The notes under the pieces were generated by a model that saw nothing but the letters and a program-made list of their open reading frames with translations, searched no databases and was not told the origin of the DNA. The translations under genes were made by a program, and so were the position numbers. A stretch of 63,758 nucleotides of DNA, the filler included, from Octopus bimaculoides (taxonomy: Eukaryota): NCBI RefSeq assembly GCF_001194135.2. It is 4 parts of 4 records of this genome, joined end to end, with 100 filler letters (N's around TTAATTAATTAA, not from the genome) between each part and the next. Parts side by side here need not be neighbours in the genome. Positions count along the whole stretch, not along the records: positions 26,940 to 46,331 come from NC_069006.1; positions 46,432 to 62,639 come from NC_068982.1; 2 more parts are not named here. One strand, 5' to 3'. This document shows, piece by piece, positions 28,951 through 54,884 of the stretch (the stretch's first letter is position 1; every line of letters starts with the position of its first letter).

Positions 28951-30249
28951 GGCCTTGTTCCAACTGAAAAAAAAACAACAAAAAACAAAAAAAAAAACTC
29001 AATCATTATATAACCGACAAACTCTTGCCACACTGCTCCGAGTCGCCATCTTGTATTTATTTATCTTTTGGTTGAGAAACAATTTTCTCTTTAATCTTTG
29101 TCTTATTTATTTATTTATTTATTTATTTATTTTCCAGATTCTAAATGAAACAATTAAGCAATTACATAATTAATTTATGGTTGTACAAGGATTGTTCAAA
29201 GTATATAGCTTCATACATCGATTTTGTTTCCTGTTTGTCAGTCGCTTTCACTATCGATCTGTTTATATTTGTATATGTATGCATGTATATATGTATGTAT
29301 TCATACATTATGTATAGGAGTGTATCGACGTGTGTGTGTGTGTGCGCCCGCGCGTACATGTATGCATTGATACATGGATATATGTATATATTAATACATT
29401 ATATATATATGCATGTATTAATACATTATGTATATATATATATATACATACATATATATATATNNNNNNNNNNNNNNNNNNNNNNNNNNNNNNATAGTGT
29501 GTGTGTGTGTGTGTGCCTGCTTATATGTACATATTAATATATAAAAGTATTGTGAATATGTATAGTTATATGGGCGTGTGTATATGTATACATATATGTG
29601 TCTGCTTTATGTATGTGGAAATATCTATAATCTCCACGTATGTGTGTGTAGGTATGTGAATGCACTTATGCTTAACATATACGCATGCATTTGTGTTTAT
29701 GTATGTATGTATGTATGTATGTATGTATGTATGTATGTATGTATTACGTATGTATGAATTGTACGCATTGAACGCATACATAGAAATGTTTCATTCCGGT
29801 TTATTTTATCCAATTTCTCTCAGATAGAGAAATAACCGGTCTGCAATCCAGAAACATGGCTTCTTCAGTGGAGTTCAAATAACATCAAATATAGATAGTC
29901 ATGTAGTAGGCTTGTTTTGTACACGCACGCACGCACGCACGCACGCACGCACGCACGCACGCGCGCACACAACGCGTGTATGCATGTACATGTAATTTTG
30001 AATGGATGCATGTGTTGGTTGTGTGTGCAACCGTTAATCCAGACACGGTTTTTTGTTCTCTCCCTTTATTTTCCTTCTCTCCATCTGGTTTTTGTCTTCA
30101 TTCCATTCTGTAAAAGAGCATAGGCTCGAAACGTCAAAAACTCTTCTGTTTTTCCTGAGCGTCAAACTTATACACTTTGTTTGTTGTTCCCTTTCCTGTC
30201 TCTGTCTTTTGTTTTTTGTACAATTTTGAACCATTTTTATTACATTACT

Positions 30250-30430
30250 GATGTCCGAGGGACTTATAAGGCCAGTTATACGGTTTCCATGATGCATACG
30301 TGACTGAGATCCCAACATCTCTCTTGAACTGGATGCCAGTCTGTCTTACGGTTATTTCTTTACAGTTGAGTGGACTGGAATGTCGTGAACAAAACACACT
30401 GCACGGTCCGGGAATCGAAACCATGACCTT
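30250..30430 (-). mobile_element. Degenerate V-like SINE
   Basis: Reverse strand has GGTTTCGATTCCC B-box and GACTGGCATCCAGTTCAAG. Confidence 0.55.
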
Positions 30431-30764
30431 GTGTATATTTACAGGCTAATGGCCAAACATTTGGAATATGTCTGTATCCACTTTCATTACTGGCTTCTGG
30501 TTATAATTTTCAAATTTATCAGCTCTGCATCCCGACATTGGTACTAAGGCCGTTAGGATAGTTAGTGACATAACCAAGTACCCCGATAATTACAGGTATA
30601 AATCATTATTATTATTTTCATATACGCTCAACAGATGAGACTGTTGGAAAGGGAAAAAAATCCTAACATTGGGCTACAACAAGTAACCTTAGATGCCAAG
30701 AACCCTCCTAAGTATCCTAGCTGTCCCCAATAACACTGTTTTCTGGAGCTGTACTATTATTATT

Positions 30765-30905
30765 ATTTTTTTTATTATCATTGCCTTTGCACAGCTTCTA
30801 ACGCTGGAGATGTATTACGGTGTCAGCTGTTCACTACCAGTGAACTAGGGTAATACCCCATTATTTTTCGAGAACCTTCCGGAGTATTCGAGCGATATCC
30901 TGCTT
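30765..30905 (-). mobile_element. R4/Dong-like extreme 3' fragment
   Basis: ARILRKVLE then 3'UTR ending in an ATAATAA tract. Confidence 0.7.
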
Positions 30906-30977
30906 GCCCTCTACGTGGAGATTATTGACTGGAATAGTCGCAGAGTCAATGTACGGGCATCTGGTAAAAAAAAAAAG

Positions 30978-31150
30978 AAGGAGTCCTGCCACATGAGCAG
31001 AAGGGTTGCAAGTGTAAGTGCAGAGGTACCAAGGATCAACTCCTGATAGACAAAATTGTACTTAGAGACTGCAAGAGGAGGAAAATTAACTTAGCCATAT
31101 CATAGATCGATTATCGTAAGGCGTACGATATGATCCCATATTCTTGCATT
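30978..31150 (+). mobile_element. R4/Dong-like RT fragment
   Basis: LPHEQKGC...[19 protein letters not shown]...IDYRKAYDMIP, RT motifs diagnostic of the R4/Dong clade. Confidence 0.9.
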
Positions 31151-31819
31151 AAGAACCAATTACAGAATAGACAACACATCAAAAAGTGACAACTGCAGAA
31201 ATAATAATAATAATAATAATAATGATAATAATAATAATAATAATAATAATAATAATAATAATAATAATAATTATTATTATTATTATTATTATTATTATTA
31301 TTATTNNNNNNNNNNNNNNNNNNNNNNNNNNNNNNNNNNNNNNNNNNNNNNNNNNNNNNNNNNNNNNNNNNNNNNNNNNNNNNNNNNNNNNNNNNNNNNN
31401 NNNNNNNNNNNNNNNNNNNNNNNNNNNNNNNNNNNNNNNNNNNNNNNNNNNNNNNNNNNNNNNNNNNNNNNNNNNNNNNNNNNNNNNNNNNNNNNNNNNN
31501 NNNNNNNNNNNNNNNNNNNNNNNNNNNNNNNNNNNNNNNNNNNNNNNNNNNNNNNNNNNNNNNNNNNNNNNNNNNNNNNNNNNNNNNNNNNNNNNNNNNN
31601 NNNNNNNNNNNNNNNNNNNNNNNNNNNNNNNNNNNNNNNNNNNNNNNNNNNNNNNNNNNNNNNNNNNNNNNNNNNNNNNNNNNNNNNNNNNNNNNNNNNN
31701 NNNNNNNNNNNNNNNNNNNNNNNNNNNNNNNNNNNNNNNNNNNNNNNNNNNNNNNNNNNNNNNNNNNNNNNNNNNNNNNNNNNNNNNNNNNNNNNNNNNN
31801 NNNNNNNNNNNNNNNNNNN

Positions 31820-51805: not shown

Positions 51806-52448
51806 ATATGTATTTGTGTGAGTGAATCTGTGTGTGTAAATGTGTGTGTGTGTGTGTGTGTGTGTGTGTGTGTGTGCGCGTGCGTAAATTGAAAGAAATT
51901 GAAAAATATAAATTCAGTTGATTGATGAGAGTTAAGCATCCTGTGCAAAGACTGGACGATGTAACGGTAAGAAGCGACAAAGTACTTCAGCCGTCCTCCC
52001 TATTTGTTGTACATCATCCAATCAATTTGGTCCTTTCCCATAGCATTCATTCCCGTCACCCACCACAATACACAAAAAAAAAAAACGAAAACAAAACAAA
52101 TTAACCGCATCAATGTCCATTGGAACTCGCGTTTAAATATATCATATATTTCTATTGCATAAATTAAACTACCTCCACCACCACCACCATCACTACTATC
52201 GGAACTATTATTGCTGCTGCTGCCGCAACTACTACTAAACCATCTCCACTCCGACAAACACCACCTACCACCAGCATCAATTAGAACAGCAATAACAAGA
52301 ACTACTACTACTACTACTACTACTACTACTACTACTACTACTACTACTGCTACTACTACGACTACCACCACCACCAGCAGCCCCTTTCGGCAACCATCTC
52401 CCAATAATCTATTTGATATTTGTCTGTGTCAGCTCTAGTTATCACAAG

Positions 52449-52477
52449 TGAACCGTCCCATGGCCAGGGACGGTTCA
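52449..52477. other. Perfect 11-bp GC-rich hairpin
   Basis: TGAACCGTCCC-atggcca-GGGACGGTTCA; CTAG lies 10 nt downstream on the minus strand (52435-52438). Confidence 0.8.
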
Positions 52478-52639
52478 TCGACCACATTACACAGGCTTGA
52501 CATTTGCCATGCCATCAAGTGTGGAAAGCAGCGAATCAATGGTTGGCCATTGATTGATAAGCGATGGAGGCGGTTNNNNNNNNNNTGGTGGTGGTGGTGA
52601 AGGGTTATTGGGAAGTGGTCTCCATTTGAGCATGTATCA

Positions 52640-53180
52640 AAATCTATCATGACCACCACCACCACCACCACCACCACCTCCACCACCACCACCAACAACA
52701 ACAACAAAACTACCGCCACCACAAAAGTCATGTCCTTATAATAATAATGATAATGATAACAATAATGACGAAGAAGATGACAGCGATAGTCATGATGATA
52801 ATGATGATGATGATCATCATCATCATCATTCTCGTCATCATCATGATCATCGTCATGAATACCGTGGCGCTCATTCGAGACATCATAGTAGATGTTTGCT
52901 GCTGATTTTCCTGTTGATGCTAATGATGATGACAATAGTGATGATGACGTTGATGATGATGATGACGATGATGATGACGATGATGACGACGACGATGGTG
53001 ACGATGATGACGACGACGATGGTGATGATGATGATAATGATGATGATGGTGATGGTGGTAATGACGACGACAACGATTGCGATGATGATGATGATGATGA
53101 TGACGGCGACGGCGATAGTGATGATGGTGATGATTAAGAGGAGGAGGTGGAGGTGGAGGAGGAAGGTAATCATGATGATG
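52640..53180. repeat. Compound (CAC)/(CAT)/(GAT)/(GAC)n low-complexity tract
   Basis: Direct. Confidence 0.9.
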
Positions 53181-54741
53181 ATGTATTTGTTTTTATCGAA
53201 CTTCGCATGGACGAGGAAAGTGAAAAACAAAAAGAGAAGGGTGAAAAAAGAAACAAGAGAGAGAGAGAGAGAGAGAGAGAGAGAGAGAGAGAGAGAGGGC
53301 AGAAAGAGAGAGAGAGAGAGGGGGGCAGAAAGAGAGAGAGAGAGGGAGAGAGAGAAAGACAGGGAGAGAAAGAGACGTGGGGGATTTTAAGAAAGGAAAA
53401 GGAAGTGGGGTGATGGGTGAAAGGAAAACGAAAGAGGGGAGGTGGAAGGGAAATGAAAACAATAAAATATAAGATTGGTCGGATGGGAGTAAAGAATGGA
53501 ACAAAAGGAGGGCGTGAGGGGTAGGTGGAGGTATATTTAGGAGTATTGAGCAAGGTAGTGACGTTGGTGGTGGTGGTGGTGGACGCATCGTAATTACAAA
53601 CAGCTAGAGGGAATTACTGAGGCTTGAACACTCCCACCCATGCGCCATCTATCGAGCAACTGAAACGTTGAAATAAGCAATGCCAATGCAACTAGTCCCA
53701 ATGCAACCAATCACAAGACAACACCACCACCATGCATACACACACACACAGACAGACACACACACACATATGGGTATATGTATGCATACACATATACATA
53801 CATACATTTATATATATATATATATATATATATATATATATATATATATATATATATACATACATACATACATACATACGTACATACATATATACATATG
53901 TGTGTATGTATATAGACACACAATCAATTTATAAAGATGGATAAATAGCAGCAAAGGACAACAGGAAAAGGGCAGGATATTTAATGTAGGAGTCTTTACT
54001 AAAATTCAATTGCAATGTGAATACAACCGAGTAGTTTTGAAAAAAAAACCTGTTATTAGAAACTTGAAATTTGAATATAGAATATAAATAAAACAAGGGA
54101 AATTCTTCATCTATGCTAAGTTTATGGAAAAGGTGTTTATGGTTGGAAGGAGAGATGAGAGAAGAAAATGTCGAAGATAGAAGGAAAGTAGAGGTTGATA
54201 CACGACTGAAGTGTTTAAAATTTGTTAGATGGAATGGTTAAAAAAGGATTTTTTAAAAAGAGTCAGTATTAATTTTAGGTATGAAAGTAATTAGATGTAT
54301 GATAATGAAAATTTGGGTTGCTATTGCATAGGATTAAATTTACGATAGCATTTTATTAGGGTGAATTAAAGGAAATTTATGTGACGAAGATTCAGGTGAC
54401 TTGATGATACGCAGAGCAACGTCTCTGGAAGTTTCCTATAAGGTCGAACAGGAGAAACCAGAATAAACATGACTAAACCTGCTGTCTCCAATAGCAAAAC
54501 GAATGGATGTATTACCACAACAATGGCTGATCTGAATATTGCTTTTGAACTGGCATAGGAGATAGAGGCTTACGTGCTACGGGTGACTGCAACTAGTTTA
54601 GTGGAAGCCGTTGCAATATCACTACTTGATACTCTCGTTTCCTTCCCGTTTGTGCAGCATAAGATGTTCCTGAGACGAAAGACGGTCGGTCTCTCCCTGA
54701 TAAATGGATATCCACTGTATTGAAATAAAGTCTGTCATACC

Positions 54742-54781
54742 GGCCATGACGAAGGGAAATAGCCCTGAAACTCGAGTCGCC
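54742..54781 (+). ncRNA. Minimal type I hammerhead ribozyme motif with one core lesion
   Basis: GGC-CATGACGA-AGGG(aaatag)CCCT-GAAAC-TCGA-GTC-GCC; stems I, II and III all pair, GUC triplet; the CUGA box carries an extra or substituted A. Confidence 0.7.
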
Positions 54782-54884
54782 TTTATATATATATATTTAT
54801 ATTTATATATTTATATATTTGATCCTTTATATTGAACACTCAATATTTCATCTACATTCAATACTTTCTTTCATGGTGCCATCC

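What the first reader, a model, noticed from the sequence alone, without database searches (positions are those of the whole stretch)
30100..54790. At least five different minimal hammerhead ribozyme families within about 25 kb, with strong strand bias
Motifs at 33946(+), 34095(-), 45742(+), 49070(+) and 54742(+), plus degenerate ones at about 30105(+), 40281(+) and 51025(+). Each has an unrelated stem II but the same design: CUGANGA...GAAA with a tiny palindromic stem III (AACGUU, ACAGCUGU, ACUCGAGU). Several lie at 3' ends of PLE relics, matching the established PLE-HHR association, where such minimal ribozymes are thought to act as dimers. Seven of eight are on the + strand, and the minus one has poor stem I. 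This would fit purging of sense-oriented self-cleavers from a minus-strand host transcript (inference; most PLE relics here are also +).
Basis: partly seen in the sequence, partly recalled or inferred. Interest (0 to 1): 0.75.

Follow-up and report, generated by a model that had tools for sequence, protein, structure and literature searches.

The report
Penelope hammerheads; one odd-core young family
Seven of the eight motifs are real leftovers of the tiny, likely self-cutting RNA motifs that Penelope-type jumping genes carry, but the cluster and strand bias are not real because the sites lie on two different chromosome-scale contigs; the one surprise is a young, abundant family whose motif has an extra letter fixed in its catalytic core.

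Summary
Seven of eight motifs are hammerhead-derived ends of high-copy repeats; 51025 is not. The 25-kb cluster is a packing artefact: a joint at 46332-46431 splits it into five sites on contig C26 and two on C2, so no single host transcript spans them. In 1.2 Mb of real genome such relics occur at about 45 per Mb and lie 24 plus / 22 minus outside the window; neighbours do not share a strand. No host gene was found. Three families (33952, 40286, 54745) are tied to GIY-YIG coding relics, so these are the known minimal hammerheads of Penelope-like elements; the scan has reported such ends in this genome before. By-product: the 54745 family (910 exact copies of a 25-mer) has the core C-A-UGANGA, never CUGANGA, in every readable copy. 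Two subfamilies replaced stem II and the palindromic stem III yet kept this core. The 30108 family has A6U, noted by the scan in another genome. Cleavage is untested; RNA reads show no ends at two predicted cut sites.

The parts
30105..30140 (+). Family A hammerhead relic; core reads CUGUAAA (family A6U plus G8A decay in this copy); predicted dead
33949..33990 (+). Family B minimal type I hammerhead, canonical core, ACGU stem III, predicted cut after 33987; 3' end of an RT + GIY-YIG element
34090..34133 (-). Family C hammerhead; canonical core, AGAUUU stem III (self-pairs only with G-U), stem I opens with a G.A mismatch family-wide
39550..40050 (+). Decayed GIY-YIG endonuclease relic upstream of the family D hammerhead
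   Evidence: tblastn to the family H endonuclease E=9e-5; no GIY-YIG Pfam hit
40283..40307 (+). Family D hammerhead relic, truncated after GAAA; predicted dead
45742..45877 (+). Family E hammerhead; canonical core, 9-bp stem II with ~90-nt insert, ACAGCUGU stem III, predicted cut after 45871
46332..46431 (.). Pack joint; left side is G000:C26, right side is G000:C2
48400..49059 (+). Reverse-transcriptase relic of the family B element, truncated and abutting a family F end
   Evidence: RVT_1 E=1e-4, below the curated cut-off; 3 of 3 other copies run on to a family B hammerhead
49071..49148 (+). Family F hammerhead; canonical core, long stem II, ACGGCUGU stem III, stem I damaged in this copy
51020..51075 (+). 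Claimed degenerate motif; rejected, no core and not conserved
54742..54781 (+). Family H (subfamily H1) hammerhead with fixed core C-A-UGACGA, ACUCGAGU stem III, predicted cut after 54778
54726..55036 (+). 5'-truncated 3' end of the family H GIY-YIG element, running into an assembly gap

Best explanation
These are seven independent insertions of the hammerhead-bearing ends of different high-copy repeat families, three of them shown and four inferred to be Penelope-like elements, lying on two unrelated contigs in strand orientations that fit chance. Inferred from the literature: each was copied in by target-primed reverse transcription from the element's 3' region and truncated at the 5' side, so the hammerhead end is what survives. 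The hammerhead likely serves the element, not the host. Two copies in a tandem precursor would pair through the palindromic stem III and cut slowly, probably helped by the element's protein. Cutting is likely not needed for each insertion, which would let core variants (C-A-UGANGA in family H, A6U in family A) become fixed in successful families. A solitary genomic copy is predicted to be nearly silent and so invisible to selection on a host transcript.
For: Two contigs. Each family gave 40 scored genome copies from 76 to 2697 candidates. Endonuclease coding sequence on the same strand within 900 nt upstream: family B 5 loci, D 3 loci besides the window copy, H 6 loci; PF01541 E=1e-7 above cut-off for H. 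Inverted second hammerhead copy in 7 of 19 B, 6 of 19 C and 6 of 19 F loci, a described feature of these insertions (PMC8557442, passages). Strands outside the window 24+/22-; neighbours 13 same, 22 different, p=0.18; 45 relics per Mb. Family H 461+/449- genome-wide. Palindrome duplexes are -8 to -11 kcal/mol for E, F, H1 and H2. Monomers inactive and dimers slow in vitro (PMC4209133, results and discussion). A Poseidon hammerhead cut only with protein, and cutting was dispensable for insertion in vitro (PMC11167929, passages).
Against: No coding link was found for families A, C, E or F within 1.5 kb. Five relics in 19.4 kb is at the high end: only 1 of 40 bins in four arbitrary regions held five or more, though the search library was built partly from these families. 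No read-end pile-up at the predicted cut in H or E, in a library not made for RNA ends. No Rfam family matched at gathering score in 8 loci. The ACGU palindrome of A and B is weak (-1.7 kcal/mol).
Confidence: 0.85

Rival explanations
1. Purging: each stretch lies in a minus-strand host intron, and sense-oriented self-cleavers were removed by selection (two genes would be needed).
For: 6 of 7 real motifs in the window are on +; the 200-kb contexts lean + when the window is included (C26 9+/5-, C2 5+/2-). A long intron without nearby exons cannot be excluded.
Against: Without the window the same contexts are 5+/4- and 3+/2-. An intact family H motif lies on - about 4 kb left of the C26 stretch and a canonical one on - about 4 kb right of it. 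No host domain in 140 ORFs. Zero reads in 7 of 30 bins of 43470-46065 in three RNA runs. Two of the + motifs are predicted dead.
Confidence: 0.06
2. For family H only: the extra A killed the ribozyme. The stems are kept as an inherited or swapped-in module, or for a non-catalytic role such as dimerising the RNA or binding the element's protein.
For: Natural insertions next to C3 impaired cleavage about 425-fold in 4 M LiCl in saltern hammerheads (PMC3088659, section 9). Cutting was dispensable in vitro for another Penelope-like element (PMC11167929). No read ends at the H cut site. Sister families with a canonical core and the same stem layout exist and could have donated stems.
Against: Two subfamilies with unrelated stem II and stem III both keep the fold, UGANGA, GAAA, UC and the three G-C pairs of stem I, and differ in the core only at N7, the free position. 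Shuffles reproduce the fold in 172 (H1) and 74 (H2) of 200000.
Confidence: 0.5
3. The motifs are chance matches in AT-rich repeat DNA.
For: True for 51025; no hammerhead among the 150 of 257 Rfam matches shown.
Against: 22 descriptor hits against 0 in the reversed control; core and stems conserved across family copies.
Confidence: 0.02

Closest known systems
[quoted passage not shown]
   Same: Type I layout, short stem I, unpaired base after A9 in most families, palindromic stem III, many unrelated families per genome, mostly solitary copies, inverted pairs.
   Different: Family H has a fixed extra A in the core (C-A-UGANGA), family A has A6U, family C opens stem I with a G.A mismatch. The only core change that paper's main text reports is U3-A8; the one searchable supplement held no CAUGA core (file 1 not searched).
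Saltern hammerheads with insertions near C3 (Perreault et al. 2011, PMC3088659)
   Same: Natural insertion at the stem I / C3 junction.
   Different: The tested one has two nucleotides placed before C3 and the three examples are rare metagenome sequences. Here one A most likely follows C3 and is fixed in a family with at least 910 copies.
Neptune/Nematis-type Penelope-like elements (Craig et al. 2021, PMC8557442)
   Same: Family H has a C-terminal GIY-YIG domain, a C-x4-C-x2-C motif upstream of it, (TA)n flanks and inverted 5' copies.
   Different: The reverse transcriptase of family H was not reached, so the clade was not placed by a tree.
PAc, Poseidon element of Anolis (PMC11167929)
   Same: pLTR hammerhead; no RNA-seq reads ending at the cut site there either.
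   Different: Canonical C3-G8 core; cleavage shown with protein, untested here.

Membership tests
PLE minimal hammerhead | Core CUGANGA ... GAAA ... UH | tested here: met
   Met for families B, C, E, F and for most family D copies; window copies of A and D are decayed.
PLE minimal hammerhead | Core CUGANGA, families H and A | tested here: not met
   H: C-A-UGANGA in 26 of 26 readable loci picked by an upstream pattern. A: U at position 6 in 11 of 18 copies not picked by the query.
PLE minimal hammerhead | Palindromic stem III | tested here: met
   ACGU (A, B), ACAGCUGU (E), ACGGCUGU (F), ACUCGAGU and AAUACGUAUU (H); C only with G-U pairs.
PLE minimal hammerhead | Short stem I closing the motif (type I) | tested here: met
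   3-5 bp in A, B, F, H; 2 bp + U.U + 3 bp in E; G.A + 3 bp in C.
PLE minimal hammerhead | Located at the end of a Penelope-like element | tested here: inconclusive
   Shown for B, D, H. For C and F only inverted copies; for A and E no coding link.
PLE minimal hammerhead | Self-cleavage as a dimer | not testable with these tools
   RNA reads show no ends at the H and E sites, but the library does not preserve ends.
Neptune/Nematis PLE (family H) | C-terminal GIY-YIG endonuclease | tested here: met
   PF01541, 32.4 bits against cut-off 22.6, followed by a stop and the 3' region.
Neptune/Nematis PLE (family H) | CX2-5CxxC motif upstream of GIY-YIG; (TA)n targets; inverted 5' copies | tested here: met
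   C-x4-C-x2-C in L216; TA flanks; inverted 5' pieces in L176, L181, L187.
Neptune/Nematis PLE (family H) | Reverse-transcriptase phylogeny | not tested
   No locus reached the RT.
Non-LTR retrozyme | Head-to-tail tandem units each with a hammerhead | tested here: not met
   Same-strand second copy in 1 of 74 H loci, 1 of 14 D loci and 0 of 19 for A, B, C, E, F.
Rfam hammerhead families | Match at gathering score | tested here: not met
   0 matches in 8 loci.

The most novel reading that the evidence does not exclude
C-A-UGANGA is a working natural hammerhead core: an A bulged between C3 and U4 is tolerated in the dimer, perhaps only with the element's protein. Together with the A6U and G.A-opened families, Penelope elements in this genome would be running slow ribozymes that standard descriptors miss.
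Probability: 0.35. Interest if true: 0.55.

Novelty: new variant of a known kind. Interest (0 to 1): 0.3.

Why it matters
The finding as written matters little: it is a known element type plus a packing artefact. The family H core matters because it offers a clean test of an open question, whether Penelope hammerheads must cut. If H dimers cleave, the core consensus widens and genome searches undercount ribozymes. If they do not, a recently very successful family spread with a dead ribozyme whose fold was still kept, which points to a non-catalytic role.

Tried and rejected
Rfam: no hammerhead among the 150 of 257 matches shown; none at gathering score. 51025 as a hammerhead: rejected. The repeat at 34189-34500 as the coding partner of 34129: rejected, no Pfam hit and 0 of 3 other copies continue into it. 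The RT relic as partner of 49076: rejected. An ORF running through the family H core: rejected, the endonuclease ORF stops about 300-400 nt upstream. Host gene search: 15 of 140 ORFs had Pfam hits, 14 of transposon type and one weak unrelated hit below cut-off. Run search: no RNA holder listed; three raw-read runs of one study were laid instead, about 6 in 100 of each read. First mates fell about equally on both strands, so host direction could not be read. No joint suggesting a unit-length circle among those listed for H. Lunse et al. (RNA Biol 14:1499), the paper most likely to hold further PLE core variants, was not available.
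Full report
Setting. The window is a pack with joints at 26840-26939, 46332-46431 and 62640-62739. The finding spans the middle joint. Window 33600-34500 is G000:C26:7328235-7329135 and 48400-49300 is G000:C2:79861381-79862281, each at 100%; both stretches are colinear with their contigs. The genome is 2.34 Gb. That it is an octopus is my recalled impression and the wording of earlier notes; no call here establishes it.

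Observation. Exact CUGANGA plus GAAA within 60 nt occurs at three of the named sites: 33952, 34129(-) and 49076. 45748 is also intact, with a 9-bp stem II enclosing about 90 nt. I searched the genome with each site and aligned 14-19 other copies per family; these are the best BLAST hits, so they lean towards the query. Families B and E have C3, A6 and G8 in 19 of 19; C and F have C3 and G8 in 18 of 19. The window copy of A has G8A (family G in 15 of 19). The window copy of D leaves the family right after GAAA. At 51025 the flanking repeat ends before the motif and no core precedes the GAAA. So seven of eight are real: two intact canonical (33952, 45748), one family-intact variant (54745), two with weak stem I (34129 by family design, 49076 by decay), two predicted dead.

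Chance, density and strand. I fetched 200 kb around each stretch and four arbitrary 200-kb regions (982 kb without N). A strict descriptor found 22 motifs, 11+/11-, and none in the reversed sequence. Family profiles plus a BLAST library of 56 descriptor hits found 53 relics; the 46 outside the window are 24+/22-. Two AT-rich hits may be false and were kept in the count. Density in the arbitrary regions is 32 in 706 kb, about 45 per Mb, a lower bound; that implies on the order of 10^5 per genome (inference). Neighbours more than 1 kb apart share a strand in 13 of 35 pairs (p=0.18), no excess. One of 40 bins of 19.4 kb held six, the other 39 at most two, so five on C26 is high but not unique, and the library favours the window's own families. 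The window's tallies give p=0.375 (4 of 5), 0.125 (6 of 7) and 0.07 (7 of 8).

Host gene. Of 478 non-repeat ORFs in the 400 kb of context I scanned the 140 longest; 15 hit Pfam, 14 of them transposon domains. Short exons would be missed. Three RNA runs of one study gave no reads in 7 of 30 bins of 43470-46065 and covered mainly the repeats. A minus-strand host is neither shown nor fully excluded.

Carriers. Family B: three of three copies of the RT relic at 48400-49059 run on through a GIY-YIG-like region into a B hammerhead. In the window that relic is cut at about 49059 and abuts a family F end, so 49076 is not its own ribozyme. Family D follows an endonuclease relic in the window and three other loci; family H does so in six loci, with PF01541 at E=1e-7. 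A, C, E and F showed no coding link within 1.5 kb. C and F have an inverted second copy in 6 of 19 loci each, B in 7 of 19, E in 2 (one locus seen twice), A in 1. Inverted 5'-truncated copies and microsatellite targets are described for these elements (PMC8557442, passages).

Mechanism. Cervera and de la Pena report many families of minimal hammerheads per genome, mostly solitary, inactive as monomers and slow as dimers (PMC4209133, results and discussion read). For PAc, cleavage needed protein, core mutants did not affect insertion in vitro, and no RNA-seq reads ended at the site (PMC11167929, passages). In folding, E, F and H1 dimers pair through the palindrome; A and B have only a 4-nt palindrome. 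A lone copy in a host intron should therefore rarely cut, which removes the basis for purging (inference).

Family H. A 25-mer downstream of the core's first letters has 910 exact matches, 461+/449-. Among the first 30, 28 have CA before UGACGA, one has A after an N gap, one is truncated and none is canonical. Among 30 loci picked by an upstream 26-mer (83 in the genome), 13 are H1, 12 are H2, one shows only the core start and four fall in gaps; all 26 readable have CAUGA. H1 has stem II GGG/CCC and stem III ACUCGAGU. H2 has AUACC/GGUAU and AAUACGUAUU; two H2 copies carry an internal duplication. Stem I (GGC/GCC), UGANGA, GAAA and UC are shared, and the core differs only at N7. Shuffles keeping GAAA and the last U reproduce the fold in 172 and 74 of 200000. 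I read this as an A inserted after C3, which keeps three G-C pairs and C3-G8; a C3A change with a mismatched stem I is the less tidy alternative. Both subfamilies appear in RNA reads at low depth, with no pile-up at the predicted cut, L216:1600/1601. The nearest precedent I found is the saltern set with insertions near C3, whose tested member cleaved poorly (PMC3088659, passages and section 9). Searches that returned no listing pointing to this core: (listings only), one of two supplement files of PMC4209133, and the scan's notes. Lunse et al. could not be read and may hold it.

Family A. U replaces A6 in 16 of 19 query-picked copies and 11 of 18 others, with N7 and loop 2 varying. Five intact A6U motifs occur in the four arbitrary regions. 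Natural A6C has low activity (PMC3088659). A search for A6U listed nothing relevant.

Verdict. The Penelope-hammerhead reading is right and known, and the scan has described such ends in this genome before. The cluster and strand-bias claim fails. The fixed C-A-UGANGA core is a real, testable variant of unknown activity. Also consulted: PMC6765202 (passages), bioRxiv 10.64898/2026.07.22.740005 (two passages; supplements closed), and a search on intronic orientation that listed one unrelated paper.

Noticed in passing
window 45095-45133 (+): CUGAUGA followed by a G run and GAAACGUUGUG, resembling family B ends but without stem II; not matched by any family profile and without RNA reads.
   Followed up: partly
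L144, L212, L221: A sub-lineage of family A with core CCGACGA (U4C), 3 of 18 copies.
   Followed up: partly
G000:C26:7317532(-), 7345117(-); G000:C2:79903252(+); L293 near 35-130: Further hammerhead families with an unpaired base on both sides of stem II and 6-10-nt palindromes; one head-to-head pair.
   Followed up: partly
L199, L203, L204, L217 upstream of the hammerhead: The 3' region of family H holds two to three imperfect ~100-nt tandem repeats between the endonuclease stop and the hammerhead.
   Followed up: no
family E and H loci (L070, L142): Both families end in a pyrimidine run plus GCA directly before (TA)n, and share a short TTTTACTCGCA stretch; possibly a reverse-transcription start signal.
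   Followed up: no
window 31820-31900 and 32951-33093 (-); 49290-49560 (+): Relics resembling R4/Dong-type restriction-like endonuclease LINE ends beside (AAT)n; the label is recalled from motif shape, not from a call.
   Followed up: no
window 25380-26005 (-): GIY-YIG-like relic in the first stretch (Pfam E=0.004, below cut-off); no known-family hammerhead found in that stretch.
   Followed up: partly
L257 (G000:C2 near 79.94 Mb), L231 (G000:C26 near 7.345 Mb): A fragmented Helitron and a Tc5/pogo-like transposase relic.
   Followed up: no
window 50150-50300 and 50850-51014: Two copies of one old repeat in inverted orientation about 550 nt apart; no Pfam hit in six frames.
   Followed up: partly
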